Made by a program: the position numbers and the translations under genes
Source of the DNA: a virus
Taxonomy: Duplodnaviria; Caudoviricetes
IMG/VR virus record: IMGVR_UViG_3300046167_000798
Direction: 5' to 3' (one strand)
Length of the DNA stretch: 64,000 nt
Shown: positions 1 to 57,065 of the stretch, in pieces
How the letters are laid out: every line of letters starts with the position of its first letter
Position numbering within the stretch: the first letter of the stretch is position 1
The notes under the pieces: generated by a model
The model's database searches: none
What the model saw: the letters and a program-made list of their open reading frames with translations, nothing else
Told to the model about the DNA's origin: nothing

Positions 1-3000
1 CTCTTTCAAATGAAACTCCTTTAAGTGATGGGTCTTTTTGTAACGCATCAAGTAATTCTTTATCTAAGTTACCACCTAACCTTGCTTGGAATCTTAAAGC
101 TCTTAGTTTTCTTAATGGGTCTTCATCAAATCTTTCTGATGCCTTACCAACTGTTCTAATGTTTTTCTTTTTAAGGTCTGCAATACCTCCAACTAAATCA
201 ACTATCTCTTTTCTATCAATATCATAGAACAAAGCATTGATAGTTAAATCTCTTCTTCGTACATCACCCTCTATATCTGTATAATCAACCGATGAAGGTC
301 TTCTACCTTTACCAATATCTTTTCTAAACGTTGCAATTTCATGTCCACCAACCATTACAACTCCGAATGATTTACCAACCTCAACAGTTTTCATTCCTAA
401 ATCTTTTGCAATCTTTAACACCTCATCTGGTTTTGCATCTGTTGCTAAATCAAAATCCTTTGGTGATTTACCAAGTATAGCATCTCTTACTGCTCCACCT
501 ACTACATAAAGTTTCTTACCATTCTTTTTAAATCCTTTTTGGATTTTAATGATATCAGATGGTACTCTTAATTTAAAGTTTTTACTTTCATCTAATCCAC
601 TTCTATCGTGTTTAGAGAATTTACCTAATTTATCAAATGCTCTAAATGATTTTAGTTTATTTACTTTTTTAGGTGTCATTACAGATAGTTGTTTATATCT
701 CATGTGGTTTTTAACAATGTAAAATACATTTGCTGGATTACCACCAACTGATTCTATAAACTTTTTATACTTCTTTACTAAAGATGCTGATACTTTCTCA
801 TGTCCAAAGTGTGTAATGTGTCCTTTCTTTGGATGAATACCTGCAGTTTCATCTTTTCCTATATCATGGAACATTGCTGCTATTGCAATATCAATGTCAT
901 CTTCTTTGATTGAACGATTTACAACTACGATTGTGTGTTTAAGAACATTTCCTTCAGGATGTTTATCTACTCTTTGACCAAAGTTTTTTAAATTGTAAAC
1001 TCTCTTTTGTAAATCAGAAGGCATCTTTTTAAATAAGGATTTGAAATCGGTGATTCCTAATTCTTTTAAACTTTCTTCAATTGGTTCGTATCCTCGTTTC
1101 TTAGTATCCTTTTCTTTTTCTTGATGTCCACCTAGTTTACCATCATCATCAAAATCTATTGTATCTGGTTCAGCTATTGAACCTCTTTTTGCATATGATG
1201 AATATGTATGATGTTTATTAAAATCTTTTTCAGCTTCTGATGAAGGTTTACTACTCTTTACAGATTTAAACTTATCTGTTACCTTTGTTGGTAACGATTC
1301 CTTTACTACATCTTCTTGTTTTTTACCTTGAAACTTATCAAATTCTTTTTGCCTAAGAGCTGGTAGAAATCTAAACTTAGCTCTTTTCATTATTCTACCC
1401 TTTTTTCTCACTACGTTCTTATGAACTACTTGTGATTGTTTGATAGTTAAATCAGATTTCTTTTTATCAGGAAATAAATCTTTCAAAAACTCATCATAAA
1501 CTTGTCTGTATGCCATTTTGTAAGCAATCTTTTTAAGTTTAGAAAGAGGTTTTCTTCGTTTCATTGTTCTGGCTCTTCTTCTTGCTATTTGAGCTTTCTT
1601 ACCAGCCATTGCCGCTTTTCTTCTCAATTTATCAGCAGGTCTCATTTTCCCTCGTTCATCGAGTTCTTCATTCAAACCCATTTTCTCTTTCCAAGAATCA
1701 AAAGCATCAAAATCGTACTCTCCTTTTTGAGAATCCCATCCACATGAATGACATAAATACTTTTCACTATCATCAGATTCTATTTCCCATTGGTGATTAC
1801 ATTTTTCACACTTAACTTCTGTTCCTGCAAGTTCTGAAATGAATCCTTCTTTAACCATTCTAAAGGTAACCACTTTTCTACCATTGATTGTTGGCATTCC
1901 ATGTTCATCTTTACCGATTGTTTTAACAACTGTTTTCTTGTTCTTAAATCTACCAGTCATAATAGTATCCCCAACTTTAATTGGTAGTACTATATTTTCA
2001 TTTAAAGATGCTTCGTATTCTTCTTGGGCTTTTTTATCACCTTTTTGAGAATCTAGTGATTGTTCTTTTTCATCTTTGTTAATATCCAATCCCTTTACCA
2101 ATTCGTAACCAACTAATGCCGCTTTACGAGTTACATGCTTAAACCATTTAGAATAAGCATCTGATGAATAGATATCAACTTGGTTAGTTGCAGTTGTTGT
2201 ACCAAGTACACCTGCTGGAAATGGAGTTACTGCTTTAACAGGTCCATTTGGGTATGTTGGATGGTCATAATAATCTTCTAATTCTTTAGTAGTAATCATA
2301 TTTACCACTTCGTATCCAATTCTCTTTGCTCTCTCTACATTTATCTTAGAGAAAACATCGTAGTTTGGAAACATGAAGTTTGGCCCATCATCTGCTTGAC
2401 CACTTCCCATTTTAGAACTCTCATTTAACAACCACTCTTCAATCATCTCTTTAGAAATTTCAATTCCCTCATCGAGTTTATCAGTAATCATACTGAAGAT
2501 AGTTGCATTAAACTTTCCATACGCTCTTTTCTTAAAGAAGTTCTTTTTCTGTTCATCAGAACCAACTGATAAACCATTTCTTACTTCTGTACCACTTACT
2601 GCACCACCAGACATTGGAGCTGCATAAACATATCCTCTATCTCTATATCCTTCCGATGGGTCTCCTTTATATGTTTGAAAGTATTTTCCACTATCAGGTC
2701 TTAATCTACTTTTATCTTTCTCGCCAACAACAGTTACAAATGCAGTTGTTTCTTCATCGAACTTTTTAAGAATTTCTGTGGGTTTGTATGGGTCTCTAAC
2801 TTTATGTATTTTGGATTTTGGAATTCCAAACATAGTAGTCATAATTTTCACCTTTTCTTTGAAGTTAAAAGGTGATTTAGGTAATTGTACCTTATCAGAT
2901 GTACCAACATAAACATTATCCTTACCGAACTTTTTGACAAGGTGTTGGTAAGTACCAGCATGTCCTTTGTGCATAGGCTGAAACCTACCCACATAGATAA

Positions 3001-3070
3001 CTACTGTTTTTTTAATAGGATTCTTATCCTCCATTATACTCTCTACGAGAAATTTGGAAAGTTCATTCAT
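1..3070 (-). CDS. Multidomain polyprotein, 3' end outside window (>1023 aa): NMNAT/cytidylyltransferase-like + unknown + Zn ribbon + Arg/Lys-rich + HD + CCA-type tRNA nucleotidyltransferase
   Basis: Translated by hand; the frame is open from ATG at 3070 to base 2 (not in ORF track). Motifs: GRFQPMHKGH and SGTEVR (HxGH nucleotidyltransferase), CEKC..CHSC, HPEGNVLKHT..MFHDIGK (HD), GGAVRD, DFDLATD, RRDLTINA, EDPLRKLRALRF (class II CCA/PAP head). Confidence 0.9.
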   Translation of the reverse strand, partial: MNELSKFLVESIMEDKNPIKKTVVIYVGRFQPMHKGHAGTYQHLVKKFGKDNVYVGTSDKVQLPKSPFNFKEKVKIMTTMFGIPKSKIHKVRDPYKPTEILKKFDEETTAFVTVVGEKDKSRLRPDSGKYFQTYKGDPSEGYRDRGYVYAAPMSGGAVSGTEVRNGLSVGSDEQKKNFFKKRAYGKFNATIFSMITDKLDEGIEISKEMIEEWLLNESSKMGSGQADDGPNFMFPNYDVFSKINVERAKRIGYEVVNMITTKELEDYYDHPTYPNGPVKAVTPFPAGVLGTTTATNQVDIYSSDAYSKWFKHVTRKAALVGYELVKGLDINKDEKEQSLDSQKGDKKAQEEYEASLNENIVLPIKVGDTIMTGRFKNKKTVVKTIGKDEHGMPTINGRKVVTFRMVKEGFISELAGTEVKCEKCNHQWEIESDDSEKYLCHSCGWDSQKGEYDFDAFDSWKEKMGLNEELDERGKMRPADKLRRKAAMAGKKAQIARRRARTMKRRKPLSKLKKIAYKMAYRQVYDEFLKDLFPDKKKSDLTIKQSQVVHKNVVRKKGRIMKRAKFRFLPALRQKEFDKFQGKKQEDVVKESLPTKVTDKFKSVKSSKPSSEAEKDFNKHHTYSSYAKRGSIAEPDTIDFDDDGKLGGHQEKEKDTKKRGYEPIEESLKELGITDFKSLFKKMPSDLQKRVYNLKNFGQRVDKHPEGNVLKHTIVVVNRSIKEDDIDIAIAAMFHDIGKDETAGIHPKKGHITHFGHEKVSASLVKKYKKFIESVGGNPANVFYIVKNHMRYKQLSVMTPKKVNKLKSFRAFDKLGKFSKHDRSGLDESKNFKLRVPSDIIKIQKGFKKNGKKLYVVGGAVRDAILGKSPKDFDLATDAKPDEVLKIAKDLGMKTVEVGKSFGVVMVGGHEIATFRKDIGKGRRPSSVDYTDIEGDVRRRDLTINALFYDIDRKEIVDLVGGIADLKKKNIRTVGKASERFDEDPLRKLRALRFQARLGGNLDKELLDALQKDPSLKGVSFER

Positions 3071-3090
3071 ATTTGGTACACCTTATCAGT

Positions 3091-3100
3091 ATATAAATAT
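3091..3100 (-). promoter_or_regulatory. ATATTTATAT motif, putative late promoter
   Basis: Exact 10-mer 20 nt upstream of ATG 3070; the same 10-mer precedes six other genes. Confidence 0.6.
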
Positions 3101-4150: not shown

Positions 4151-4282
4151 TTAATGATTTTTATAAATAAATGGGTCTCTTTTACGAAGTTCTTCTAATT
4201 TCTTTTTATATTGTTTTTGAAGCTTTCTTCTTTGTATTTTTTTTATTACCCAACCAAATAAAAAGTTATATATTTTTTTCAT
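4151..4282 (-). CDS. Small basic hypothetical protein (43 aa, MKKIYNFLFGW..RKRDPFIYKNH)
   Basis: ATG 4282 to TAA 4151 fills the gap between flanking genes; below the ORF-track length cutoff. Confidence 0.6.
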   Translation of the reverse strand: MKKIYNFLFGWVIKKIQRRKLQKQYKKKLEELRKRDPFIYKNH

Positions 4283-9797: not shown

Positions 9798-10371
9798 TTG
9801 GTTTATCTCTTTTAGATAATATTGGATTATCTGTTGGCCAATCTATGTTAAATCTTTTATCGTTCCAAAATACTGTACCTTGTTTATCATCATCGTAGTA
9901 TTCACCTTGATATGCAAGTTTGTATTGGAAAATGGAATTATCTTCCATTACATAGTGTCCATTTGCGAACATCGGTGGAATTAAAACTTGAGTACCTGTT
10001 TCAGGACCAATTATAAAAGATTCCCACTTACCATAGTTTGGTTGTTTTGGTCTTAAATCCAAAACCACAAGATATAACTTACCATGAGGACATGAAATTA
10101 GTTTCCATGTTTTATCATCCCAATGTAACCCTCTTAAGACATTTTGTTTTGATTTTGAATATCTATCGTGATTAAACTTCAACCCTTCGTTTCTTTCACC
10201 AGCTGGTAATAATCTATCGTAGAAATCAGAATGATATGTTGTAGTAATCATTCCTCTATATTCGTGATATATAGATGGTTGTATAATCTTTACTTGAGGC
10301 AAAACAGAACCATTGTAAAAGTGAAAATCATCCCAACTTCTTTCTTTGTAAAATATACTTCTATTTTTCAT
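9790..10371 (-). CDS. rfbC: dTDP-4-dehydrorhamnose 3,5-epimerase (RmlC/cupin) family
   Basis: NVLRGLHW..KLISCPHGKLYLVVLDLR, LIPPMFANGH, WNDKRFNIDWP..ILSKRD. Confidence 0.85.
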   Translation of the reverse strand: MKNRSIFYKERSWDDFHFYNGSVLPQVKIIQPSIYHEYRGMITTTYHSDFYDRLLPAGERNEGLKFNHDRYSKSKQNVLRGLHWDDKTWKLISCPHGKLYLVVLDLRPKQPNYGKWESFIIGPETGTQVLIPPMFANGHYVMEDNSIFQYKLAYQGEYYDDDKQGTVFWNDKRFNIDWPTDNPILSKRDKPNG

Positions 10372-11120
10372 TATAACAATTCTTTATTAATTATACTTAC
10401 TCCTTTTTGCTGAACAACTTGAGTTGAACATTTATTTGCAAATTCAAGAGATTCTTCAATTGAACGAGTCTGTATATATTTAAATATAAGACCTGCCAAA
10501 AAACTATCTCCAGCTCCAGCAACATCCTTTACACCAACATCTTTGGTTGGATAATTTTTTCCATTCCAATCACATCCATTTGGGCCTCGTGTAATAATTG
10601 TTTTTTCTTTTAATAATACATTACTATCTATCTGAGTTTTGCTTCTTAGATATTCATTATAATTTATCTTTATATAAGATATGTACTTACACCAACTTCC
10701 AAGTTTTTTCTTTGTATCTAAAAAAGTTGGACAATTACATTTTGATGATATTTCTTCTATATCGGATTTTGATAAGAATCCTTTATCATAATCTGCAAAT
10801 ACAACCAAATCAAATTCATCTGTATTTGGCAGTTCTGTTAAATTAAGATTAGAAACTTTATCATTTTCATCTATTCGTAATAAAATGTAATTATAAGAAT
10901 CATCAACATATCTTATTTTTGTAACTTCTTCAGTATTACAAACCAAATGAGTATCAACTCCAAGTGCTTTTAGATTCAATTGAACATTTTCAGCCATTCC
11001 TTTAGAATAAGTTTCTCTCAATGGTTTAATGACAGGTACTGGTGCCTCTGGTGATAATCTTAAAACATCACCATAAATAAAAACATCATCACAACTCTCT
11101 CCTATTACTAATACTTTCAT
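10371..11120 (-). CDS. PfkB-family sugar kinase, RfaE/HldE kinase domain-like (stand-alone)
   Basis: VIGESCDD..RLSPEAPVPV and DVAGAGDSFLAG. Confidence 0.85.
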   Translation of the reverse strand: MKVLVIGESCDDVFIYGDVLRLSPEAPVPVIKPLRETYSKGMAENVQLNLKALGVDTHLVCNTEEVTKIRYVDDSYNYILLRIDENDKVSNLNLTELPNTDEFDLVVFADYDKGFLSKSDIEEISSKCNCPTFLDTKKKLGSWCKYISYIKINYNEYLRSKTQIDSNVLLKEKTIITRGPNGCDWNGKNYPTKDVGVKDVAGAGDSFLAGLIFKYIQTRSIEESLEFANKCSTQVVQQKGVSIINKELL

Positions 11121-11122
11121 AT

Positions 11123-11984
11123 CTATCCTTTTATATATTTTACAAATGATGAAAAAAGATTTTCTAACTGATTATTTTCAAATTTATAATCTTTCATTCC
11201 ATCACTTCTAAATTGTTTTTTATATTCTATCTCTAATATGTTTTCTCTATCTGTTAATCCAATGTGAGATAAATCTATAATAGATAGTTTGTTATTTAAA
11301 TATTCAAAAGTATTTATAAACTTATCTATATCTAACTTCGGGTCTCCATTTTCATTAACATATGCATCATAGTACTTAATTTCATTTGGTCTTATATGAT
11401 GTGATTGAAATCCTTTCCAATATTTTTCCTCAAACATAGATAATAAATATAAAATCATTCCTTTATGTGGACCTGATTCGTTAAAGAATTCTGTGTTTGG
11501 TAAATTATCTGCAAACTTTTTTATCATCTCATGGCTACCAAAAAAAAGCATGGTCTGGAATATGTTGTAAGGGCTCACCATTATTGCTTAATTGACCTAA
11601 TGGATATATCTGATTGGGTACATTATTTAGTAATTTTTCTAAATCTTTTATATAAAATGTACTATCAACTCTTCCTATGAAAATACAATCATATACATCA
11701 TCACACTCATTCAAGTACTTAGATAAAAACCTAAAAGAATAATGAAGAACATGATTATCTGTATTTGAAAAATCTTTCCTATCGTATAAAAAAACCTTTG
11801 GATTGTTTAATGTATTAAAGTCTTCTTCTGTAACAGATTCAAAGTTTGATGAACCTAAATATTCACTTGTTGTATTTGGAGTGTGAATTACAATATCTAA
11901 GTTTGGGATATCTAATATGTTCCAAAACTTTCTTGCAGTTTCAAAGGTTCTCTTTTCCCCATATAAAAAATATAAACATTTCAT
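11123..11984 (-). CDS. Hypothetical protein (~286 aa), possibly glycosyltransferase-like; split by +1 indel in the A8 run at 11540-11547
   Basis: Two track ORFs join as ..IPDHAFFGSHEM.. after deleting one base. The LYGEKRTF, YDCIFIGRVD and DHAFFG pattern resembles small phage GT-like proteins. Confidence 0.55.
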
Positions 11985-12388
11985 TACCAACTAATTTCCC
12001 AATCCTTAAATTCTGCTGCAATACAATCTACCTTATAATCTTTTCTACCACCATCAACTTCTTGTATTTTATTTTTTGCTGTATTTCTGATTCCATTTAA
12101 TCCATGTGTTAACAACAAGTTATTTCCTACATCTTCACCATTTCTTGCATTATCTTCATTTACCCAAATATGAGTATTCATCTGAGCCAATACAATTATT
12201 GCTCTGATAAAATCACCATCAATTTTTAATTGTTTTGTGGTAGTTAAGATTTCTGTAATATCATGTACGATTTCTTCAATCTCTTTTTGATATTCTTTTT
12301 TGTGTTGTGGTATTTTAACTTCTTTAAGTTGAACAATTGTCAACCTATCAATTAGTTCTCCTAATGTTGGTAAATATTTTCTAGCCAT
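11984..12388 (-). CDS. Helical hypothetical protein, DUF6165-like
   Basis: LGELIDRLTIVQLK..NTHIWVNED..NGIRNTAKNKI pattern recalled from DUF6165; not verified by search. Confidence 0.45.
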   Translation of the reverse strand: MARKYLPTLGELIDRLTIVQLKEVKIPQHKKEYQKEIEEIVHDITEILTTTKQLKIDGDFIRAIIVLAQMNTHIWVNEDNARNGEDVGNNLLLTHGLNGIRNTAKNKIQEVDGGRKDYKVDCIAAEFKDWEISW

Positions 12389-13335
12389 TTATATAACTTT
12401 TTAATTCCTGTTTCTAATTTTTCTGTTGGCTCCCACTCTAATAATTTTTTTATTAATTTATTATCAGAGTTTCTTCCTCTTACTCCAAGAGGCCCATCTA
12501 TATTTTTTATCTTTATATTCTTATTACTAATTCTAATAATCATTTTAGTAAAATCATTTATGGATATCATTTCTTCAGAACCAACATTAATTGGAGTAGT
12601 TACTTCTGATTTCATTAATCTTCGTAATCCTTCAACACACTCATCTACATATAAGAATGAACGAGTTTGTTTTCCATCTCCCCAAACTTCAATAGTATCT
12701 CCTTCATTTGATTTTACAACTTTTCTACAAATAGCAGCAGGTGCTTTTTCTTTTCCTCCATCATAAGTTCCCATAGGGCCGAATATATTATGTAATCTTG
12801 CAATTTTTGTATCTATTCCATAATTTTTTCTAAATGATAAATACAATCTTTCTGAGTATAACTTTTCCCAACCATATTCCGAATCAGGATTTGCTGGATA
12901 TGCTGAACTTTCTTCACAATTAGGATTATCAGGGTCTAATTGATTGTGTTCTGGATATACACAAGCTGATGAGGTATAAAGAACTTTATCAATACCAAAC
13001 TCTGAACATACCTTTAATACATTTAAGTTAATTATAGATGAGTTGTGCATTATATCAGCATCATTTTCACCTGTAAATATGTATCCTGCTCCACCCATAT
13101 CTGCCGCGAGTTGGTAAACTTCATCAACTCCATTACCATCTATAATCAAAGAAGATTTTACAAGATTTAGATTTCTTAAATCACCTACAATAAAATCATC
13201 ACATATATCTTCGTGATTAAAATATTCATGTGATTTTATATCAACACATCTTACATAATATCCTTCTGATTTTAATCTTTTGGCTAAGTGTCCTCCAATG
13301 AATCCACCACCACCAAGTACTACTGCTGTTTTCAT
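12361..13335 (-). CDS. GDP-mannose 3,5-epimerase-like
   Basis: GGGGFIGGH, QLAADMGGAGYI, EYGWEKL, GGKEKAPAAICRK, GPLGVRGRNSDN. Confidence 0.9.
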   Translation of the reverse strand: MKTAVVLGGGGFIGGHLAKRLKSEGYYVRCVDIKSHEYFNHEDICDDFIVGDLRNLNLVKSSLIIDGNGVDEVYQLAADMGGAGYIFTGENDADIMHNSSIINLNVLKVCSEFGIDKVLYTSSACVYPEHNQLDPDNPNCEESSAYPANPDSEYGWEKLYSERLYLSFRKNYGIDTKIARLHNIFGPMGTYDGGKEKAPAAICRKVVKSNEGDTIEVWGDGKQTRSFLYVDECVEGLRRLMKSEVTTPINVGSEEMISINDFTKMIIRISNKNIKIKNIDGPLGVRGRNSDNKLIKKLLEWEPTEKLETGIKKLYKWLENIYQH

Positions 13336-14546
13336 ATTGCTAAACTTTTTATAAAATTTTTATCACTATCATCATTAATTATCTTTTTAATAACATTTCT
13401 ATTATATTCAAATCTTTGAAAATTATGTTTGAAAAAATCTTTAATTTCATTTTCTATTTTAGATAATCTGATTATTTCACTTTGTATCATTTTAAATCGT
13501 TTACTTGGATTTTCTTCCAAATCATATGAATGGTCAACTACATCATCGAACCAATCAAAATCAAACTTTTCTCTCATTCTTTTTATATGACCATGTGTTG
13601 CCAATATAATTGGTATCTGATAAAACCACAATGGTTGAGTAGATTTTTCCGTAATGTGTATTACATCCTTCCACTCATATTGAGTTTCAGTAACTATATT
13701 AATATAGGCATGTTTATATAAATTATTTTTATAAGTTAAATCATGTTGAGGTCCGTTTTTATCAAATTCAAAATTTTCAAATTTACTTTTTTTACTTGTA
13801 ATAGCATATAACCATTCAGCTTCTTTATCATATACTTCACTTTCTGTTTCATCAATGATTGGTGTATATGATGATTTAAAATAATCTATACAATCATTTT
13901 CTGTATTATAATAAGCTTTAAATTTATCTCCTTGTAAAAAACTATAATCTACTTTATCTAGTAAATTTTCTTTTTTTAGAAAAAGAATTAATGCAACTCT
14001 ATGTGATTTAAATGCTCTATTATAACATTGAAACAAACAATCTCTTTCTGTATCATATCCCCAACTCCCAGCTTCTTCAAATGTTCTTGCAATCCCAACT
14101 GGTATATGATTATTTGAATAAACATTTATATTACTATTTGCTTGTTGTTTTAAATTATCAATCAAATCATTTCCACAAAAAAGATAAAATTGTTTTTCAT
14201 CTATACCAATTGAATTTACATATTTTTTTATATCAATAATTGCATCTGGTGAATCACTTTCATGAAAAGTTACAAATAAAAACCTGATATCATATCCTTC
14301 TTTGTAAAGATTTATTATATCTAATGGTATTTCAAATTCTTTGTTTTCTAAATCCTGTGAAGGATATCCATATGTACGATAACATACATAATATGTTTTT
14401 TCTTTTTGAATATCATCTATATTACAAATAACATAATCATTTTTCATATCCCAATGACCAAATGTATCTAATATATTATCCTCAATATCCTCGTGCTGTT
14501 TTCTCAAAGAATCAGATAATAATATGTTAATTTTATTTGTACTCAT
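13332..14546 (-). CDS. GT10-like putative glycosyltransferase, paralogue 4
   Basis: FQCYNRAFKSHR; VTET..ITEKSTQPLWFYQIP..FDWFDDVVDHSYD. Confidence 0.5.
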   Translation of the reverse strand: MSTNKINILLSDSLRKQHEDIEDNILDTFGHWDMKNDYVICNIDDIQKEKTYYVCYRTYGYPSQDLENKEFEIPLDIINLYKEGYDIRFLFVTFHESDSPDAIIDIKKYVNSIGIDEKQFYLFCGNDLIDNLKQQANSNINVYSNNHIPVGIARTFEEAGSWGYDTERDCLFQCYNRAFKSHRVALILFLKKENLLDKVDYSFLQGDKFKAYYNTENDCIDYFKSSYTPIIDETESEVYDKEAEWLYAITSKKSKFENFEFDKNGPQHDLTYKNNLYKHAYINIVTETQYEWKDVIHITEKSTQPLWFYQIPIILATHGHIKRMREKFDFDWFDDVVDHSYDLEENPSKRFKMIQSEIIRLSKIENEIKDFFKHNFQRFEYNRNVIKKIINDDSDKNFIKSLAI

Positions 14547-22566: not shown

Positions 22567-22576
22567 ATATAAATAT
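22567..22576 (-). promoter_or_regulatory. ATATTTATAT motif, putative late promoter
   Basis: Exact 10-mer in the intergenic gap, 19 nt upstream of ATG 22547. Confidence 0.6.
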
Positions 22577-41001: not shown

Positions 41002-41011
41002 ATATAAATAT
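41002..41011 (-). promoter_or_regulatory. ATATTTATAT motif, putative late promoter
   Basis: Exact 10-mer 13 nt upstream of ATG 40988. Confidence 0.55.
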
Positions 41012-42216: not shown

Positions 42217-42444
42217 TCAGTCTTTATTTACATTTCGTATCTCTTGACCATCATAGTACATTTTAATTGATTTTACATATCTTTTAAGTTCACTATTATT
42301 TTTATTAAATACAACTATATACTCATGAATGTAATTATCAATATCATTTTGAATTTCAATATTATGAAAATCTTTTTCATTTGTTAAAGTTTGTTCTACT
42401 TTATGACCAAGAGAACACTCTACTATCATTTTTAGTTCTGTCAT
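42217..42444 (-). CDS. Hypothetical protein (75 aa)
   Basis: Fills the gap between co-oriented genes. Confidence 0.55.
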   Translation of the reverse strand: MTELKMIVECSLGHKVEQTLTNEKDFHNIEIQNDIDNYIHEYIVVFNKNNSELKRYVKSIKMYYDGQEIRNVNKD

Positions 42445-42944: not shown

Positions 42945-45900
42945 TTACCATGAGTTTCTACCACCATCATCATGTCCTACTATAATCCAACCACCTTCAC
43001 AATTTTTGGTAGTATTCCCATTCCTAAGAGTTTGTTTATTAAAGATAAATTGAACACAATGTCCACCACTTAAGGTGTACCATCCGTTATTATCTCCTTC
43101 TCCTGATAACCCTTCTATATATGCATTTCTACCATGGTTAGTGTTGAATATATAGACTACCGTACCATCAGCTATATCTTCAACATCATAAATATCAGTA
43201 CTGTATTGATAATTTCGTGCTGCTTTTGGAACAGAACTATCATTACTTCCGTTAGTAAATTGTCTATGTGGAAGTGCATAGTACTGACTTGAAGCTGAAG
43301 AACCAGGAGATAATGTAAAGAATGCACCTTTCATTGGATTTATATATGATGGACTAGTTGAACTCCCACCACTTGATGGAATACTATATCTCCTCATTTC
43401 AGGTCCACTGTAAAGTTGAGGTCTTGCCAGTCCATAAAATGCACTACTTCCTCCATAATCTTGGCCTAAGATAGTACGGCCATAGAAATTAGCTCTACCA
43501 GTTGATGTAATTGTTGAATCATCTTTATCATCTTGATTAAGAGAAACTGTTCCTCCCTCTACTTGTAAAAGTGTAGAGGTATAACTACCAGGTGATACTC
43601 TATTAATTTTTACATACTGGTCTGAGTTTGTTACGGCCTGGAATCCCCCACCTGATAATTCTACAAAGTTTGATGGTTGTGCAAGTGTAAATGATTCATC
43701 AAACCCACTAACTGCTTCTGCACGTTGTGTGGAATTTTGAACATATGTAGTGGTGGAGTTAGTACTAGTTCCATCTAATAAGTATTTTGTTCCTGTTCTT
43801 GCCAGAACTTTTGATTTATGTATAAATCTATAATCTCCTGTACTTGTAATATTAATAGTAGAAGTAATTGGTGTGGCAGAAGCATAATGATAACTGTTAG
43901 CAGATGTAGTATATCCTGAAACTGTTTGCCAGTCATAATTATTTGAATTTCCGGTTGCCGTATAATAAGTACCTATTGTTGTTGCACCTCGTGAGTACGC
44001 ATATCCTAATTGAATCTCAGAAACCGTATCCCATGTACCTGAATTATCTTTCTGAAGACATAAATAAACGTAATGGTAAGTATATGCCGCAGATGCATAA
44101 GATTGATAATTGTAAGTAGGATATGGTGGAACTAGGTTTCCAAATGGACTTCCTGTTGTTACTGAAACACTCGGTGGGCTGGTATTTAATGTCCAAGTTG
44201 GCATAGTTGTCCCACCACTATATAAATCAGATAATTGATACTCACCTGTTGTGGAAATTGTTATATCAGTACTATCTGGTGTACTAAAAGCTGTTGCTTC
44301 CCCTTGTGCACCTGTTCCACTATTTGAAGATACATACGATGTAGCGGGTATTGAAGAACCAGGTTGATTACTATTGTAACTAGCAATGTAAATATTTCCT
44401 GCACCAGCTGAAGTTAAAGTATCATCTGCATTAATTTGTGCTTTAAGTTCATTACTTGAATTAAATAATTGAATCTTCTTAGATGTTGGATTTAAAATAA
44501 TTCTACTATCAACATCTCGAAGTTTACCTTCATTTTCAACAGTATCAACAACCCAGCTACCAAGAATTCCACTTTGTATATTAAATGAACCTGAAATGTT
44601 TGCATCTTGTGCTGACATGTTTCCATCTGAATCTACATGGAATTTAGGATTTCCTTCTGTTGGTACACTTAATGTACCACCAATTACAGAACCACCTGAT
44701 AGAGTTCCTGTAAATGTACCACTACCATTAACAATCAATTCATCTGCAGAAGCATCCCAAGTAAGTGCACCTCCTGTTCCTCCAAGGAAAAAATCACCAT
44801 TATTGGCCATGTAGGTTGTAAAATTACTACCATCATGATATCCTACAAATTGTGAAGTTAAATTTAATCCTGCAGCGGCTGTATTTGTTGCCAAAGCAAA
44901 TGCATTTGCACCACTTCCACCAAATGCATAAGATGTTGGATTTTCCAAACCACCTGTTGTTGCATTAATTGCATTTACACCACTTTGTGCATTACTAACC
45001 GCGGTATTTAATGAACCGGTTGCAGTATTTAATGAACTTACACTACTATTTAATGAACCTGTTGCACTGTTAAGAGAATTTAATTGATTTGCAGTTTGAC
45101 CTCCTGTTATATTAATAGTACCTGTTACAGTTAATTTTGCTTCAGAAGCATCCCAAGTAAGTGCTCCAGATGTTCCACCAAGGTAAAAATCACCACCACT
45201 ATCCATGTAAGTTGTGAAATCACTACCATCATGGTATCCCATATATTGTGAAGTTAAATTTAATCCTGCGGTGGCTGTATTTGTTGCTAGTGTAAATCCA
45301 TTCCCACCAAATGCATAAGAACTTGGATTTTCTAAACCACCTGTTGTTGCATTAATTGAATCTACACCACCTTGTGCATTAGTTACGGCGGTATTTAATG
45401 AACCGGTTGCAGTATTTAGTTCTCCTAAACTAGCTTCAAGTCCTTGGCCAGAGGTTAATGTTATTGCTCCTTTTATATCTAATGTCGAACCATTCCATTT
45501 TAAATGATTTGAACCACCTTTTAAAGATAATCTGTAACTTGGAGTTCCACTATTATCATGGTTACCTATAAAAATACCATCTACATCATATCCTTGGTTT
45601 CCTGCAGTACTACTTTGTCCTATTGAAATGTATGGATTATTAGTACCACCTGCTAAAGTAATATTAGCTGCAGAAATACCTCCACTATTGTTACTACCAA
45701 CATTTAATGTATTTTGAACAAATGAATCTTCAAACAATCCTATCTTTGCTGCCACAAAGAAATCTTGTGTTCCTAAACTTTCCCATTTATTTGCACTTGA
45801 TTGATGAGGTGCACCATTAGCAACATTACCAGTAGCAGAAGTATGACTTGATTTAACTGCATAATATTCATCATATGGTGCGTTACCACTTGATGACCAA

Positions 45901-48900
45901 AGTACTACATCTCTTCTTCCACTTGCTCCAGTCGAAAACTGATATGCTCGGCTATCTTCCCAAACTCCTGTAAATACTACACCTGGTCCATTTGTTCCAA
46001 CAACGGCGGTTGTGACTGGGTGATTAAATTGTTTACTACCAGCATTACCTGAACCATCCTTATAATCAATAGTATATGTTGTTGTAAGTCCACCTGGATT
46101 ACTTGCTGAAGAAGGTTGTGATGGTGTTAAAACTCCTGCTGAAGCTTCTGAACCATTTGTTATACTTGAGTTGATTTTAAATTGTGAATTTGATAATGTT
46201 GCACTACTAAGTACCGCGGTTAATGCCGAACCAGTTTCTTGAGCAGTTATGGTAATATTAGATACACTATCAAAAGTATCTCCATTATTTACATCTCTTA
46301 TAAGATTTTGAGTAAATAAACTTGGAGTTATATCTACTGCATTTGCACCATCTTGTCCAACAGTACCATCTTCACCTTGAATTGATTTTGTTAATGTTTG
46401 AGTAGTTGTTAAACTAAAAGCCGTTCCATCTAATCTTTGACCCGATATTGTATATGTTATAGTTGCCTGATTTGCAGTGAAAGCACTATGGTTACCAATT
46501 ACACAAGTTGTTGTATCTAGTCCTTGACTTGCAGTTCCTTCAGTTAATCCACTTTCATTAGAAATAGAAACACCATATTTTCCTGCAGATACAGTACCAG
46601 TTGTAAATGTTAAAGCAGTTACTCCTTCAAACACTTTAATGTTTGTACCACTTCCTGCAAAAGAAGTTGGTGTTCCACTAGGATTACAAGTAAAAGAATG
46701 ATTTGAATTATCATTAGATACTTGAATACTATCTAAACCTTCTTTTGATTTAGTTAAAGTTTGTACACTTGTTAGTGAAATTGCATCACCATTTAATCTT
46801 TTACCAGTTATTGTATATGTTATAGCTACTGTATCTGTACCATCAACCATTGCAGAATGAACACCAACCACTGCATCATTTGTTGAATCAGTTATAGTAC
46901 CAACTGTAATTGTTGAAGTGGGTGATTGTGAAGTTGCAACTGTCCAATGACCAGCAGTTGAACCATCATTATCATAATCTAATTGAGTTGCTCCTTCAAA
47001 TAAAGAAAGTGTAGTTCCACTATTTGCATAATCTAAAACTTCTCCACTTGAAGATGCTGGTAATGTATGTGATGGATTTGAACTAATAAGTGTTAATCCA
47101 TCTGTTCCTTCTTTTACTCTTACAATTCTTACTTCATCAGTAAAATCACCATCTTCACTAGCAGTTACAGAAAGTACAACTGAGGTATTTGAACCAAAGT
47201 TTGTTGCTGATAATGCTCTTGAATCACCTGTACCAGTTAGGGTTACCGAAGGGTCTGTATTGAATGTAGAGGAACCTGATATATTTTGTCTTATTGCAGT
47301 AAATGAAATTGATGATGGGGTTACTGTTCCATCTAATGCTTCAACAAATACTTGTGCATCATTTGTTAATCTTACACTTCGTGCATTTGTTCCATCTCTA
47401 CCATCCGATACTATAAAGAATGTTTCAGATACAGATGTTGTTTTACTTGTATTTGGGTCAACGAAAGTAGCATTAACAGTTAAGTCTTTTGTAGTTGTTG
47501 CAGTTGAAGAACCTAATGTAATACTTCCACCATCCCCATCGTTTGCAGTTAAGGTTATTTCTGAATCTCCTGTTGCGGTACTAATCTTCATTTTATCAAC
47601 AGTACCATTAAAACTTGGAGTAATCAATGCACTCTTTTGATACTCAGTTCCATTTGAATCAAAGAAAGAAGCAGTTAATGGTAAAGTTGCTGGTGTAAAT
47701 GAATTAGTAAGTCCTCTATTTGTATGTAATGAATTTGCTAAGAATGTTCCTCCACCTAAACCATCAGTTACATCTAATAAAGCAATAGTATCTAATAATG
47801 TACCATCATCTTCTTTAAGTGAAATTAATTTTGAACCACTTATTGCAGTATTAGCAAATACAGGATTATAAGTTACACCATTTCCACCATCACTAATACC
47901 GGTCATACTTGTAGTTAGTAAAGTACTTCCACTATAAAGTTGTGCATCTCCTTGAGCAGAACCACTTACATCAAATGAACCTGTACCATCCAATCTTACT
48001 ACTTGTAGTTGTAACGTACCTTGGTTATTTTTTATTTGTGTTCCATTTATTGGTTTAATGATAAATCGTGGTCTTGTATCAAGGCCTGGTTTTGTAAATA
48101 TTAAACTTTCTTGGTCACTATCTAGTTCATTATTTAAATTAACATTATTATCAGATACTCCTACTCTAAAAGTAAATGGAGTACTTGGAATTGTAGTTGG
48201 TGCAGTAAATACTCTACTCGTATGTTGTGAACCAGTTGAATCGTTAAAAGTAGTATCATCGACAAAACTACTATCTCCTCCTGTAAATTTGTAGTATGGG
48301 TCATTTATAGTAGATGAACCTGAAGCAATTAATGTTACTGTTGATGGAGTTGGGTTTGTTCCATCTGCATTATATTGTATAGTATTAGGACTTATAAGTA
48401 ATGTAACACTACGAGCATTTGTTCCATCAACACCAACTTTAGATACACTTACATCAAATCTTACTAATTTATTTTGTACTAATGTTCCTTCGGAATTTAC
48501 ATAATCAATTGATGCACTACCAATTGTTCCATTATATCCATCGTGAGTACCATATGTTGGTGTAATTATTTCATTAGAATTTGAACCTGAACTTACTGAG
48601 TTGATTTCAAATTTATAAGCTTCACTCAATCCTCCACTTAAACCACTTTGATAACTATATTCAGTCCCCACCTTCTTGTACCACAACTTCTATTGTTTGT
48701 GGAACTTCATATCCACTTGAACCAGAGTTTATTGTTTGAGAAGTTGGTGATGTTTTTGTTAAAACATTTGGTACTGCCTTTTTTGATTTTGTATAAGATA
48801 CAACCTTTTCAAATGATTGTGATGTTGTATTATCACCTGCAAGATATTCAATATTTAATGTTAACGAACCACTATCTTTACTAGTTTGAAATGCAGATAT

Positions 48901-51465
48901 AGAATAGTTAGAAGTATTTGGAGATGTATCAGTTGGTGTTACATTTGTACCACTAATTGTTTTTATATCAAATGTGTTTCTATTTCGTGAATTATCTGAA
49001 TCATAATCATCATGTGTAATTTGATTAGAACCAATAAACATCTGTACCGAACCACTTGATGCTGCAAATCCTCCAAGTATTTCACCAGTCGAGTTAGCTG
49101 GGAATGAGGTTGTTTCATTTGAAAGTACAAGTGAAACTGCATCAAAATTAACTACCTTGGATAATGTAATTTCATCGGTTTGGGAATTACCAAATACATC
49201 AGAACCGGTAAATGAATAAGTTACCTCATCAAAATTATTTGATGCAAATGATTGAGAAAACTGAGTTGATGAAATTGTGTATGAATCTATACCATTTACA
49301 GTTTCTACAAAATTAAGAGGAGGTCTATTACTTCCACTATTTACTTCGATTGGTGTTATCAATGAAGCTAAGTTTTTTCTTTGTGCTCTTACAGTTATAC
49401 TCTGTCCACTTGGTTTTGGTGAAAGAGTTGTTGGTTCGTATATAAATTGATTGGCATTAGAAGTTACTATAAGTTGAGGTGCATTATCACCATCTTCTAA
49501 TCTATATACTGTTTCAAATTCTTGAAAGTTTTCCAATGATGCAGTATAAACAACAGAACCAACGAATGGAGTTTCACTATTATCAGTTCTTGAACCAGTA
49601 AAATTATTTATTGTTACTATTGCACCTGCAGGAGTTATTGTTGTTAACTTACCTGGATATTGTGTATAATCACTAGGATTTAAATAATTACCATCAACAT
49701 CAAATGCCGATGAAGCAAATGTTGTAGAACCAGTTAAATTAGAAGTACCTATTTTAAATTGTATTTGTTGTCCTTTTGGATTTTGTACCGAACCACTTGA
49801 AAATCTAAAAGCATTTCTATCTGATTCAAATGTTAAAAGTTTTGTACTTGATGGAAAATCATTTCCACCATCAAATTCTTTTGTTGCAATTACATCAACA
49901 GGTATGTAATTATTATTTACATCATAAAACTCAAATTTGAAATCAAATGTTTCACTTGCAGTTTTTCTAGGAATATCTTGTATAATAGTAAACTCATCTG
50001 GTGAAAATGATGTATCTTGTGCATTTCTTAAAGATACATTTGAAATGTACCAATCAGACCCTTGAACCTCGAATACTAATTTTGCATCTCCAGTATTTTC
50101 TGATATAATATTTTTAGTTAAAGTTTGTTGTGATTGATAAATATCAGAACCACTTATTGATAAAAAATCTTGAGTAAAGTTTGAAGAACTTAAATATGCT
50201 CTTACTTTTTTATTAGAACTATCAACTGAACCACTTACTTTTGTTTTAAAATTTAAAGTATATTCAACATCTTTTGATATTGATATTGATTGAGAAGTTA
50301 TAAGTTCTTGAACACCACTTCCTGCATAATCTATTTTTACTGCTTGTGATAAAACACTTGAGTTGATTGTAGTGGGATGTGAGTTTGATGAAGTTACCCA
50401 ATAATTAGATAAGTTATATGAATCAAATCTACCATAAGATATTTCAGTATCTCTTGTTGTAGTTATATCTCTAAGTAATTCAGTAGATTCTAGTTTAGCT
50501 TCTTGTACAAATTGGAAATCCCCAACAGCGTTTCTTGATTTTCTAAATACCTTAACTCTGGCAACATCACCAACAAATGTTTTTAATTGTGTGATATCAA
50601 TTTTACCAAACGAACCTGTAAGTGCAGATTCACCTATTGTTTGATTTTGAATATCTTGGTATGTAACACTATAAGATTGTGAACTAAAAGATTGTACTAA
50701 ATTATTTGAATCAGTAAATGGAACATCAACCAGTACTTCTCTATCGTTTAAAACTTCTATAATGTTTGGAGAATAATTTAAAGAAGATATTGTTATTGTA
50801 TTTTCATCAACATCTCTATCCCAACTACCACTCGTTCTTTGTAATAAATAAGTAGTACCCGCTCTCCAATTAGAAATATCAAATGATTGAGGAGGATTCA
50901 TTGGGAATCCACTTATTTCTCCTGTTTCAGTTACATTAGTTATACTTTTTGAAAATATTGGTTTTACTAATTCAGTTATACTAACAATAGGTCTTTTGTA
51001 AAACCTTACAATACTTTCATTGTTTAAGTTTTTATTTATATTAAATGATTTTTCCCATTTAACATTGTAAACACCCTTCCATTCATCAGGTACATCTGTA
51101 ATTGCACCATCATTACCAATATATGTTTTTAACTCACCAAGTACTGTAATCTTACCAATACCAATTGGGGTATCTTCATAAACATGAACAGATACTAATT
51201 TTGAGTTACCTTCATAATATTCAGGCACACCACCACCTGGTTCAAAATATACAGGATTTCCCTCTACATCAAGAATTTCTATTTTTATTTCTGTTGATTC
51301 TTTTAAGAATTCAGAACCCTCGATAAGAAATCCATTCTTACCACCGGTAAATGTTTCATTAAATTCTGATATTCTAAAATACTCAGAATTAGGTAAATCA
51401 TCATTTTCAAATACTTGAAAGTTTGTTAAATTTAGAAATGGTGAGAATTTTTTAATTATAGCCAT
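42945..51465 (-). CDS. Giant tail fibre/baseplate-attached adhesin (~2839 aa); split by +1 indel at 48666-48669
   Basis: The 934-aa and 1913-aa ORFs join as ..VVQEGGTEYSYQ.. after deleting one base. S/T/G-rich beta repeats, DGTNA/G.DG linkers and coiled-coil LNTATGS repeats; followed by a chaperone gene. Confidence 0.75.
44749..45420 (-). repeat. Internal tandem duplication (~387-396 nt period) in the fibre gene
   Basis: GCGGTATTTAATGAACCGGTTGCAGTATTT at 45001 and 45388; GAAGCATCCCAAGTAAGTGC at 44749 and 45145. Confidence 0.9.
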
Positions 51466-51486: not shown

Positions 51487-51496
51487 ATATAAATAT
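51487..51496 (-). promoter_or_regulatory. ATATTTATAT motif, putative late promoter of the giant fibre gene
   Basis: Exact 10-mer 21 nt upstream of ATG 51465. Confidence 0.6.
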
Positions 51497-51543: not shown

Positions 51544-51708
51544 ATGGGAAAATATACTACAATACAAGTTAAAAGGGAATTATATAAAGAATTACACGAT
51601 TACTGTTGTGAGAATGGTTATTCTAAAAGTGGATTGGTTGAGAGGTTAATTAAACAAAGAATTAGTAAACCTAAACCTACTAATGTACTTAGAGTTTCTA
51701 AAACTTAA
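51544..51708 (+). CDS. Ribbon-helix-helix (CopG/Arc/MetJ-like) DNA-binding protein, 54 aa
   Basis: MGKYTTIQVKRELYKELHDYCCENGYSKSGLVERLIKQ: alternating beta strand, helix, G-x-S turn, helix. Not in ORF track. Confidence 0.7.
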   Translation: MGKYTTIQVKRELYKELHDYCCENGYSKSGLVERLIKQRISKPKPTNVLRVSKT

Positions 51709-57055: not shown

Positions 57056-57065
57056 ATATAAATAT
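57056..57065 (-). promoter_or_regulatory. ATATTTATAT motif, putative late promoter
   Basis: Exact 10-mer 20 nt upstream of ATG 57035. Confidence 0.6.

What the first reader, a model, noticed from the sequence alone, without database searches (positions are those of the whole stretch)
1..3070. Hidden enzyme polyprotein with prohead-protease-type [LIV]-x-E sites at module junctions
Seen: one frame of more than 1023 aa, absent from the ORF track, strings together unrelated modules: NMNAT-like (~aa 21-200), an unknown DDGP module, a small beta module, a CxxC..CxxC ribbon, an Arg/Lys-rich module, HD (~671-825) and a CCA-type NTase (829 onward). The junctions carry LVE10/IME14, LNE217, LNE358, VKE408/ISE413, LNE468/LDE472, VKE591, IEE666/LKE670 and LDE828. 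The gene also has the putative late promoter. Known: T4 gp21 cleaves after (I/L)-x-E, and T4 internal proteins start with a short cleaved capsid-targeting leader (MKTYQEFIAE), which MNELSKFLVE resembles. Inference: a cargo polyprotein is packaged into the head, cut into separate enzymes at maturation and injected. Caveat: such tripeptides are common by chance and some fall inside domains.
Basis: partly seen in the sequence, partly recalled or inferred. Interest (0 to 1): 0.88.

Follow-up and report, generated by a model that had tools for sequence, protein, structure and literature searches.

The report
Phage head-packaged enzyme polyprotein precursor
A marine T4-like giant phage encodes a 1621-residue chain of RNA-repair and NAD-type enzymes whose joints carry the cutting sites of the phage's own head-maturation protease, so it is probably packed into the head, cut into separate enzymes and injected with the DNA.

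Summary
Window 2..3070 (- strand) is the first 1023 codons of an intact 1621-aa gene, which missed the ORF track only because it runs off the window edge. Modules in order: a 10-aa leader, NMNAT-like, three small unknown modules with a Zn ribbon, a basic helical module, HD, a CCA-adding enzyme and, beyond the window, an RNA-ligase-like domain.

- **Motif placement:** 21 of 26 [LIVM]xE triplets lie in 106 junction residues. Domain interiors hold 4, against 14.7 expected.
- **Specificity:** only [LI]xE is depleted, not [LIVM]xD or the reversed motif.
- **Conservation:** sites persist at junctions across more than 30 shuffled architectures, with the middle residue varying.
- **Structure:** the sites fall in AlphaFold low-confidence linkers.
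- **Context:** the gene always lies just upstream of terminase, portal, a T4 gp21-type (S77) protease and a capsid protein with an LDE|A propeptide site.
- **Leader:** MNELSKFLVE matches leaders of three other head-module proteins and resembles the T4 capsid-targeting sequence.

Packaging, cleavage and injection are inferred, not shown (confidence about 0.6). I rate it a new variant of known packaged or "polyvalent" phage effectors. Other first-stage notes of this scan read the same gene similarly.

The parts
3092..3099 (-). Promoter-like motif TATTTATA(TA), 22-29 nt upstream of the ATG
   Evidence: The same motif with similar flanks lies in intergenic regions before head genes in L007 (9 sites against 3.7 expected, 0 of 100 shuffles). 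It is the reverse complement of the T4 late -10 box, so function is inferred only.
3079..3084 (-). Shine-Dalgarno-like AAGGTG, 8 nt before the ATG at 3070
   Evidence: Read directly. It supports Met1, not Met13, as the start.
3041..3070 (-). 10-aa leader MNELSKFLVE (capsid-targeting-like), ending in the first LVE site; a second site, IME14, follows
   Evidence: Conserved as M[NS][EK]LS[KNQ][FY]LV[ED] in homologues. The strict pattern M..h..h[LIVM].E is unique in the 64-kb window and recurs in 3 head-module proteins. T4 IPII/IPIII begin MKTYQEFIAE.
2477..3028 (-). M1, NMNAT-like nucleotidyltransferase (aa 15-198; GRFQPMHKGH and SGTEVR motifs)
   Evidence: Pfam CTP_transf_like 1e-05. The best NCBIfam and PDB hits are NMN adenylyltransferases but lie far below the curated cut-offs.
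2420..2476 (-). Junction 1 (aa 199-217): LDE201, MIE211, IEE212, LNE217|S
   Evidence: AlphaFold pLDDT is below 50 at 195-202 and 217-227.
2006..2419 (-). M2, unknown 'DDGP' module (aa 218-355); no internal [LIVM]xE
   Evidence: No family or atlas match. The model is of low confidence.
1997..2005 (-). Junction 2: LNE358|N
   Evidence: 65 of 65 distinct flanks keep [LIVM]xE here, with x = N, T, Q, K, E or D. pLDDT is below 50 at 355-359.
1856..1996 (-). M3, small beta module (aa 359-405)
   Evidence: Predicted beta strands. It recurs in 49 of 149 diverse relatives, in varied positions.
1832..1855 (-). Junction 3: VKE408|G and ISE413|L
   Evidence: Both are 100% conserved as a pattern in close homologues. 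pLDDT is below 50 at 407-419.
1676..1831 (-). M4, CxxC...CxxC zinc ribbon (aa 414-465)
   Evidence: The sequence is. Weak HypA and MJ0042 zinc-finger hits.
1655..1675 (-). Junction 4: LNE468|E and LDE472|R
   Evidence: In some homologues the CCA module is inserted here, after LNE|SK. pLDDT is below 50 at 464-473.
1307..1654 (-). M5, Arg/Lys-rich helical module (aa 473-588); no internal motif
   Evidence: pLDDT is about 90 and the module is all helical. No named relatives.
1061..1306 (-). Variable disordered linker (aa 589-670) with VKE591, IAE634, IEE666|S and LKE670|L. This is the cassette insertion zone in homologues.
   Evidence: pLDDT is below 50 at 584-661. GNAT, cupin, DUF5661 and unknown cassettes are inserted here in homologues. 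[IV]KEgLKE precedes the HD module in 50 of 50 flanks.
596..1060 (-). M6, HD phosphohydrolase (aa 671-825), homologous to the HD domain of multifunctional CCA/repair enzymes
   Evidence: Pfam HD 2e-07. NCBIfam tRNA_CCA_actino positions 251-346 and PRK10885 positions 215-329.
587..595 (-). Junction 6: LDE828|S, a precise recombination breakpoint
   Evidence: 100% conserved. Many homologue alignments break exactly at residue 828/829.
2..586 (-). M7, class II CCA-adding tRNA nucleotidyltransferase (aa 829-1023 in the window; continues to about 1181 off the window). The whole 353-aa module has no [LIVM]xE.
   Evidence: Pfam PolyA_pol 4e-30. NCBIfam CCA 1.6e-51. PDB CCA-adding enzymes 3e-33. Stand-alone phage CCA enzymes carry 7, 7 and 3 motifs.

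Best explanation
The gene encodes a 1621-aa precursor of several enzymes that travels inside the phage head.

Proposed mechanism:
1. A 10-residue amphipathic leader (MNELSKFLVE) directs the precursor into the assembling prohead. Leaders of the same form are carried by other head-module proteins of this phage.
2. The phage's T4 gp21-type (S77) serine protease, which cuts after [Leu/Ile]-x-Glu, removes the leader. It also cuts the exposed, often duplicated sites in the flexible linkers between modules.
3. This releases an NMNAT-like nucleotidyltransferase, several small modules (one a Zn ribbon, one basic and helical), an HD phosphoesterase, a CCA-adding enzyme and an RNA-ligase-like enzyme.
4. 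The pieces are ejected with the DNA and act before any phage gene is expressed. Their likely job is to mend tRNA damage (3'-end and anticodon-loop cuts), and perhaps NAD loss, inflicted by host defences.

Across relatives the string is a cassette holder: a stable N-terminal part and a C-terminal ligase-like domain, with accessory enzymes plugged in between protease sites.

Shown here: the gene, the domain identities, the site statistics and conservation, the linker disorder, the protease and capsid site, and the synteny.
Inferred: packaging, cleavage, ejection and the biological target.
For: - **Gene and domains:**. The C-terminal module is RNA-ligase-like. Its model has pLDDT 93.3, and every top structural hit is a ligase, most of them RNA ligases (Naegleria Rnl Z 9.2, T4 Rnl1 8.7, Trl1 8.2). 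KxDG, R, E, EG and K are invariant in 67 sequences.
- **Site placement:** 21 of 26 motifs lie in 106 junction residues. Interiors hold 4 against 14.7 expected (3 of 20000 shuffles), and against a background of 1.98 per 100 aa in 53 other ORFs of the window.
- **Specificity:** [LI]xE observed/expected is 0.23 in the interiors and 0.49 in 134 diverse M8 domains, against 1.22 background. [LIVM]xD (1.04 and 1.10) and Ex[LIVM] (1.50 and 1.63) are not depleted.
- **Clustering:** tandem sites, 0 of 5000 shuffles; other large proteins of the window show no such clustering.
- **Conservation:** junction sites persist whatever the neighbouring module, with x variable. In 135 diverse relatives 104 have [LIVM]xE directly before GGxxGH. 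Motifs flank the M1, M2 and M3 cores in 56-95% of cases (45% downstream of M2), against a 20-23% null.
- **Linkers:** 9 of 13 P1 Glu in residues 195-690 fall in pLDDT<50 segments, which make up 31% of those residues. LQE1223 lies in the disordered tail of M8.
- **Stand-alone M8 proteins** begin with short leaders ending LxE just before the domain, e.g. MRNIGPYLIE|GG.
- **Head context:** an S77 protease (3.6e-26; 33% identical to T4 gp21, with the residues aligned to T4 His85 and Ser140 kept), a capsid propeptide ending LDE61|A, and an E-rich scaffold with 37 sites.
- **Synteny:** TerL and portal lie downstream in 30 of 30 loci, and the protease within 10 kb in 23 of 30.
- **Leader:** the strict pattern is unique in the window and shared with 3 head proteins. 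The T4 capsid-targeting sequence was verified, and its rules (targeting by residues 4 and 7, processing by 8 and 10) are in PMC9026906.
Against: - There are no protein-level data. No virion proteome exists for this phage or for its only cultured relative.
- T4's own packaged Alt protein shows no LxE depletion (observed/expected 1.03), so depletion has no precedent as a marker of packaging.
- About a fifth of diverse relatives have LL[LQT][CM] instead of LxE right before the ligase-like domain. The hydrophobic part of that triplet may therefore also have a structural role.
- About 44% of M3 borders in distant relatives lack a nearby site, so not every joint need be cut.
- Junction windows in the first enrichment count were drawn with knowledge of the motif. 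The AlphaFold and alignment-breakpoint checks are independent, but they cover only part of the protein.
- The promoter-like motif also precedes non-head genes.
Confidence: 0.6

Rival explanations
1. It is packaged, but only the leader and perhaps a few sites are cut. The protein enters the host as one or two large multi-domain enzymes. The junction LxE sites are merely tolerated because cuts in linkers are harmless, while sites inside domains are purged.
For: Depletion inside domains needs only exposure to the protease, not productive junction cleavage. Some junctions in distant relatives lack sites. Module order in the N-terminal half is fairly constant among close homologues, which hints at some function in cis.
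Against: Tolerance alone does not predict about 14-fold enrichment, tandem duplication or strict retention of a site at every junction through module swaps with x varying.
Confidence: 0.17
2. It is an ordinary cytoplasmic, uncleaved multifunctional RNA-repair enzyme made late in infection. It would be like a fused Pnkp/Rnl/CCA system, and the LxE pattern would be a by-product of helical Glu/Leu-rich linkers.
For: HD, CCA and ligase make a coherent RNA-repair set that could work as one polypeptide. Fused RNA-repair enzymes are known from my own knowledge of bacterial Pnkp/Hen1 and the multifunctional CCA enzyme.
Against: It does not explain the specific avoidance of [LI]xE, with no avoidance of [LIVM]xD or of the reversed motif, inside domains. 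Nor does it explain the leader shared with head proteins, the leaders on stand-alone M8 proteins, the invariant position in the head operon, or why other large proteins of the same phage lack the clustering.
Confidence: 0.13
3. The conserved ligase-like protein is a morphogenetic factor rather than cargo. The precedent is T4 RNA ligase 1 (gp63), which also promotes tail-fibre attachment. The extra modules would ride along.
For: The T4 rnlA annotation records the dual role. M8 resembles T4 Rnl1 in fold (Z 8.7). The gene is fixed in a morphogenesis operon.
Against: A morphogenetic role does not predict protease-site architecture or N-terminal leaders. Catalytic ligase residues are invariant across 67 sequences, which argues that the enzymatic function is selected.
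Confidence: 0.05

Closest known systems
T4 internal proteins IPI/IPII/IPIII and Alt (capsid-targeting sequence, gp21-processed, injected)
   Same: It has a 10-residue N-terminal leader with hydrophobic residues at positions 4, 7 and 8 and Glu at 10. An S77 prohead protease is encoded nearby. The capsid propeptide site is at the equivalent place. The presumed role is counter-defence at the moment of entry.
   Different: T4 cargo proteins are single small proteins or one enzyme. Here up to about ten unrelated modules are strung together with internal sites. The cargo is RNA/NAD enzymes, not restriction inhibitors or an ADP-ribosyltransferase. T4 Alt shows no site avoidance.
Polyvalent proteins of phages and conjugative elements (Iyer et al. 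2017, PMC5512222)
   Same: Many unrelated effector domains sit in one polypeptide. The gene lies beside portal and terminase genes. Packaging and injection are predicted, and the architectures are highly variable.
   Different: None of the hallmark domains (MuF, ART, zincin-like peptidase and others) was found by Pfam. Processing would be by the prohead protease at linker sites, not by an in-built peptidase. [quoted passage not shown]
Ejection/inner-body proteins of giant phages phiKZ, 201phi2-1 and SPN3US, cut by gp21-like proteases at (S/A/G)-x-E or A-x-E
   Same: Head-internal proteins are cut after Glu at short motifs, with redundant sites in propeptides.
   Different: In those phages cleavage mostly removes propeptides from structural or unknown proteins. 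They are not known to release a series of recognisable metabolic or repair enzymes from one chain.
T4 tRNA repair (Pnkp + Rnl1) and the bacterial multifunctional CCA-adding/repair enzyme with an HD domain
   Same: The enzyme chemistry matches: an HD phosphoesterase homologous to the CCA enzyme's own HD domain, a class II CCA head, and an Rnl-like ligase fold.
   Different: The T4 enzymes are early cytoplasmic proteins, not virion cargo. Here the HD module precedes the CCA head and the two are separable cassettes. No polynucleotide kinase module was detected.

Membership tests
T4-type capsid-targeted, gp21-processed head cargo | The phage encodes a Peptidase_S77 (gp21-family) prohead protease | tested here: met
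   Pfam PF03420 3.6e-26 for L007:9219-9812. It is 33% identical to T4 gp21, and the residues aligned to T4 His85 and Ser140 are kept. That these two are the catalytic residues rests on my memory of the T4 structure.
T4-type capsid-targeted, gp21-processed head cargo | An N-terminal leader of about 10 residues ending in [L/I]-x-E, with the key positions 4, 7, 8 and 10 | tested here: met
   MNELSKFLVE against T4 MKTYQEFIAE. The position rules are in PMC9026906. The leader is conserved in homologues and shared with 3 head-module proteins.
T4-type capsid-targeted, gp21-processed head cargo | Physically present in virions, with termini created by cleavage after Glu | not testable with these tools
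   This needs virion mass spectrometry. The protease-linker co-fold gave no verdict.
Polyvalent proteins (Iyer et al. 2017) | Two to fifteen unrelated effector domains in one polypeptide of a portal-terminase phage, encoded with head genes | tested here: met
   At least 8 modules, with 32 architectures among 120 homologues. TerL and portal lie downstream in 30 of 30 loci.
Polyvalent proteins (Iyer et al. 2017) | Hallmark domains of that collection (MuF, ART, zincin-like peptidase, ArdC-N and others) | tested here: not met
   Pfam scans of 7 family members list none of them.
ATP-dependent RNA/DNA ligase superfamily (covalent nucleotidyltransferases), for the C-terminal module | Motif I KxDG lysine plus motifs III, IV (EG) and V (K) | tested here: met
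   K46, D48, G49, R65, E130, E376, G377 and K388 are invariant in 67 sequences at 39-83% identity.
ATP-dependent RNA/DNA ligase superfamily (covalent nucleotidyltransferases), for the C-terminal module | Adenylyltransferase fold | tested here: met
   The model has pLDDT 93.3. The top 40 structural matches are all ligases, mostly RNA ligases, at Z 6.4-9.2 over about 190 residues. Foldseek E-values are only 5e-3, and there is no sequence-level PDB or Pfam hit, so this is a distinct clade.
Class II CCA-adding enzymes | PolyA_pol head domain and a full-length match to the CCA models | tested here: inconclusive
   The head domain scores 4e-30. NCBIfam CCA gives 1.6e-51 but 175.6 bits, below the 290-bit equivalog cut-off, and PcnB scores almost the same. 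It is a CCA/poly(A)-type NTase whose exact specificity is not settled.
NMN adenylyltransferase (NadM/NadR type) | HxGH and SxTxxR motifs and a match to the NMNAT models | tested here: inconclusive
   GRFQPMHKGH and SGTEVR are present. The best NCBIfam and PDB hits are NMNATs, but they cover only about 60 residues and score about 30 bits against cut-offs of 127-449.

The most novel reading that the evidence does not exclude
A widespread family of uncultured T4-like phages (more than 1700 sequence clusters) uses the prohead protease as a polyprotein-processing enzyme, as eukaryotic viruses use theirs. A modular precursor with plug-in cassettes between [L/I]xE sites is packed into the head and diced. 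It is then delivered as a ready-made kit of tRNA-repair enzymes (HD, CCA, RNA ligase), an NAD-type enzyme and other enzymes (GNAT, cupin) that disarm RNA- and NAD-targeting host immunity before the first phage gene is read.
Probability: 0.5. Interest if true: 0.88.

Novelty: new variant of a known kind. Interest (0 to 1): 0.78.

Why it matters
If true, phages can deliver whole enzymatic repair pathways, not only inhibitors or single enzymes, as pre-made virion cargo. It would also show that the head-maturation protease doubles as a polyprotein processor.

That would explain how such phages survive abortive-infection nucleases that act faster than phage gene expression. It would define a simple, portable grammar (leader + module + [L/I]xE linker) for loading foreign proteins into T4-like heads.

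It also offers a sequence-only signature for finding virion cargo in metagenomes: junction enrichment combined with interior avoidance of the protease motif. The family is abundant in marine metagenomes, yet among 50,697 phage records it has only one cultured representative.

Tried and rejected
- **Protease-linker co-fold:** the S77 protease with a 40-residue linker (residues 1196-1235) scored 0.00, 'no answer'. This is not evidence either way.
- **Near-identical DNA in the INPHARED phage collection:** none.
- **Sequence searches of the C-terminal module:** against PDB, Pfam and NCBIfam these gave only spurious eS6/TetR hits or nothing. Only the fold search identified it.
- **Unknown modules:** atlas look-ups for M2 and M5 gave no usable lead. 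The AlphaFold model of 195-690 was too weak (pLDDT 61) for a fold search of M2-M4, so those modules stay unidentified.
- **Protease family versus junction class:** I tried to link it to the alternative 'LLxC/M|GG' class through the contigs of P0135 and P0201, but those contigs were too short.
- **T4 precedent for site avoidance:** T4 Alt, gp20 and gp24 are not depleted, so the avoidance argument rests on this family alone.
- **Rejected readings:** an assembly chimera, because the identical gene lies on at least 8 independent contigs. A T4-type TATAAATA late promoter on the coding strand, because the motif is on the opposite strand.
- **Whole-genome search:** not available for this window.
Full report
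**What is there.** The ORF listing and translate show one open frame on the - strand from the ATG at 3070 to the window edge (1023 codons). A good AAGGTG ribosome-binding site lies 8 nt upstream. The frame was 'absent from the ORF track' only because it has no stop inside the window. A search of 5.8 billion proteins found the complete product, 1621 aa and 100% identical, on contigs up to 273 kb. The gene was recovered intact on at least 8 independent metagenomic contigs, so it is not an assembly artefact. The window is AT-rich (about 29% GC). All genes lie on one strand, and a long sugar-nucleotide island lies upstream.

**Modules.**
- Pfam, NCBIfam and PDB searches give an NMNAT-like nucleotidyltransferase (HxGH and SxTxxR motifs). 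Its hits are weak and cover only the N-terminal part.
- The HD domain is specifically like the HD domain of multifunctional CCA/repair enzymes.
- A class II CCA/poly(A)-type nucleotidyltransferase follows (4e-30; 1.6e-51; PDB 3e-33).
- Between the NMNAT-like and HD modules lie an unknown 'DDGP' module, a small beta module, a CxxC...CxxC ribbon and a basic helical module. None of these four could be named.
- Beyond the window lies a 400-aa C-terminal module with no sequence-level relatives in Pfam, NCBIfam or PDB.
- With a 67-sequence alignment AlphaFold2 gave a model of this C-terminal module at pLDDT 93.3. All leading structural matches are ligases, most of them RNA ligases: Naegleria Rnl Z 9.2, REL1 8.7, T4 Rnl1 8.7, Trl1 8.2 and T4 Rnl2 8.0.
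- The ligase motifs KxDG, R, E, EG and K are invariant in this module. I read it as a new clade of RNA-ligase-like adenylyltransferases.

Of these, 21 end within 106 junction residues.
- The eight domain interiors (1443 aa) hold 4 against 14.7 expected from their own composition. Only 3 of 20000 shuffles reach 4 or fewer.
- The other 53 ORFs of the same window carry 1.98 per 100 aa, an observed/expected ratio of 1.25.
- The 353-aa CCA module has none. Three stand-alone phage CCA enzymes have 7, 7 and 3.
- The avoidance is specific. [LI]xE observed/expected is 0.23 in the interiors and 0.49 across 134 diverse C-terminal domains, against 1.22 background.
- By contrast [LIVM]xD (1.04 and 1.10), the reversed Ex[LIVM] (1.50 and 1.63) and [FYW]xE are not depleted.
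- VxE is not depleted in the 134 diverse C-terminal domains (1.38), which fits a Leu/Ile-specific enzyme; in P0002's own interiors only 2 occur against 4.5 expected, too few to judge.
- Thirteen of 22 [LIM]xE sites have a second site within 8 residues (0 of 5000 shuffles). Six other large proteins of the window show nothing comparable.

**Test 2: homologues.** Among 120 close homologues there are 32 architectures.
- The N-terminal modules and the C-terminal ligase-like module stay. HD, CCA, GNAT, cupin, DUF5661 and unknown cassettes come, go and change order between them.
- Alignment breakpoints fall exactly at residues 828/829 and 1220.
- A site lies within the last 10 residues before a module in 40/40, 65/65, 39/39, 55/56, 50/50 and 54/54 distinct flanks (M2, M3, M4, M5, M6, M8). 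It does so whatever the upstream neighbour.
- The middle residue varies freely: Q, T, K, M, N, A, S, I and L before the ligase-like module.
- An exhaustive profile-free search found 1775 clusters at 50% identity with the C-terminal module. It is almost always last in the chain, behind 0-1500 residues of other modules.
- In 104 of 135 of these, [LIVM]xE directly precedes the conserved GGxxGH. Most of the rest have LL[LQT][CM] there and a site 10-35 residues upstream.
- Stand-alone versions begin with short leaders that end in LxE right before the domain: MRNIGPYLIE|GG, MGFKQYLKESHFLTE|GG and MRFKEFYLVE....
- Motifs flank the cores of the NMNAT-like, DDGP and beta modules in 56-95% of distant relatives (45% downstream of the DDGP module), against 20-23% at random positions.
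- The only cultured phage with the family, Microcystis phage Mel-JY01, has a 639-aa core version. It consists of an NMNAT-like module, IAE|GG and the ligase-like module, at the same genomic place.

**Test 3: independent domain borders.** In the AlphaFold model of residues 195-690 the segments below pLDDT 50 include 217-227, 355-359, 407-419, 464-473 and 584-661. Nine of the 13 P1 glutamates fall in such segments, which make up 31% of the residues. In the model of the ligase-like module the first ten residues (SKLLQEGGAY) are disordered. The two retained internal motifs sit in a strand and a helix of high confidence.

**Test 4: the protease and its known substrates.** Directly downstream lie two small genes, TerL, a T4-type portal, several small proteins and a Peptidase_S77 protease. 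An E-rich scaffold with 37 sites, a Gp23-type capsid protein and gp13 follow.
- The protease scores 3.6e-26 against Pfam S77. It is 33% identical to T4 gp21, and the residues aligned to T4 His85 and Ser140 are kept.
- The capsid propeptide carries six sites. The last, LDE61|ATATG, lies at the place equivalent to T4 LTE65|AEIGG.
- This order is conserved. In 30 of 30 IMG/VR loci with enough flank, TerL and portal follow the gene. The protease is within 10 kb in 23 of them.

**Test 5: the leader.** T4 IPII and IPIII begin MKTYQEFIAE. According to PMC9026906, residues 4 and 7 direct targeting and residues 8 and 10 direct processing.
- The polyprotein begins MNELSKFLVE, and this is conserved in homologues.
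- The strict pattern M..h..h[LIVM].E occurs once among all ATG-started frames of the 64-kb window, in this gene.
- It occurs three more times in the 21-kb head locus: MISLKNLLNE, MIKLTDLLKE and MIKLTQLMNE, all between TerL and the scaffold.
- A looser leader, ending in LxE at positions 6-13, is present in 10 of the genes between portal and capsid, against 8 of 57 other window ORFs.

**Promoter.** The motif upstream of the gene is TATTTATA(TA) on the coding strand (window 3092-3099). The same motif with similar flanks precedes several head genes (9 sites in L007 against 3.7 expected). It also precedes some non-head genes in the window. It is the reverse complement of the T4 late box, so 'late promoter' is plausible co-regulation, not a demonstrated T4-type late promoter.

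**Interpretation.** The simplest model that explains all of this is that the precursor sits in the prohead while an [L/I]xE-specific protease is active. On that model sites inside folded domains have been purged, and sites in linkers have been kept, duplicated and carried along with each cassette. I therefore favour a packaged, protease-diced enzyme polyprotein (0.6). I cannot tell whether every joint is cut (rival 1, 0.17). A purely cytoplasmic fused repair enzyme (0.13) or a gp63-like morphogenetic role (0.05) explains much less. The enzyme set (HD phosphoesterase, CCA-adding enzyme, RNA-ligase-like, NMNAT-like) points to repair of tRNA ends and breaks, and perhaps NAD supply, but the substrates are inferred.

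**Caveats.**
- No protein-level evidence exists.
- T4 Alt shows no site avoidance.
- One fifth of distant relatives replace the Glu before the ligase-like domain.
- The first junction count used motif-informed borders.
- The co-fold gave no verdict.

**Relation to the known.** The closest concepts are the following.
- T4 capsid-targeted cargo processed by gp21.
- The 'polyvalent proteins' of Iyer et al. (PMC5512222). These lack RNA ligases and are thought to be self-processed by in-built peptidases.
- The multiply cleaved ejection proteins of phiKZ-like phages.

This family combines these ideas in a form not described in the papers I could search. Other first-stage notes of this scan on the same genome read the gene and the neighbouring leader-bearing head proteins in the same way. 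I re-derived those points from the sequences rather than relying on the notes.

Noticed in passing
L007:4410-4799, 10001-10876, 10887-11843, 11828-13255, 13255-13599 (head locus of the same phage, beyond the window start): Several unannotated proteins between TerL and the scaffold begin with 8-10-aa leaders ending in [LM]xE. L007:11828-13255 (475 aa) has only one further [LI]xE (observed/expected 0.31). L007:10001-10876 has a tandem pair at residues 168/173. These are likely further head cargo, some of them modular.
   Followed up: partly
L007:13653-13958: A ribosomal protein bS21 gene (Pfam Ribosomal_S21) sits inside the head module, between the protease and the scaffold. Mel-JY01 has one at the same place.
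   Followed up: no
window 4300-33200: A long island of sugar-nucleotide genes: several epimerase/dehydratase SDRs, a dTDP-4-dehydrorhamnose 3,5-epimerase, a PfkB kinase, and split E1 alpha/beta TPP-enzyme fragments. It is probably for virion or DNA glycosylation, or for host surface remodelling.
   Followed up: no
window 51698-54856: An SbcC-like (658 aa) and SbcD-like (243 aa) nuclease pair (PHROGs 77 and 100).
   Followed up: no
window 42945-48686 and 48661-51465: Two very large ORFs (1913 and 934 aa) with no PHROG match. The 1913-aa one has only 6 [LIM]xE triplets. They may be structural (fibre or tail) proteins.
   Followed up: no
window 3092-3099, 4162-4169, 22568-22575, 41003-41010, 51488-51495, 57057-57064, 58191-58198, 60157-60164: The coding-strand motif (a/t)TATTTATAta lies 13-30 nt upstream of many start codons. 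It is a candidate phage promoter and is shared with intergenic regions of the head operon.
   Followed up: partly
P0111, P0072, P0080, P0116 (homologues): Other family members carry GNAT acetyltransferase, cupin and DUF5661 cassettes in the variable zone between protease sites. P0135 carries a ROS/MucR zinc-finger hit.
   Followed up: no
window 42220-42444: A small ORF (75 aa) starts MTELKMIVE|C, a leader-like N-terminus outside the head module.
   Followed up: no
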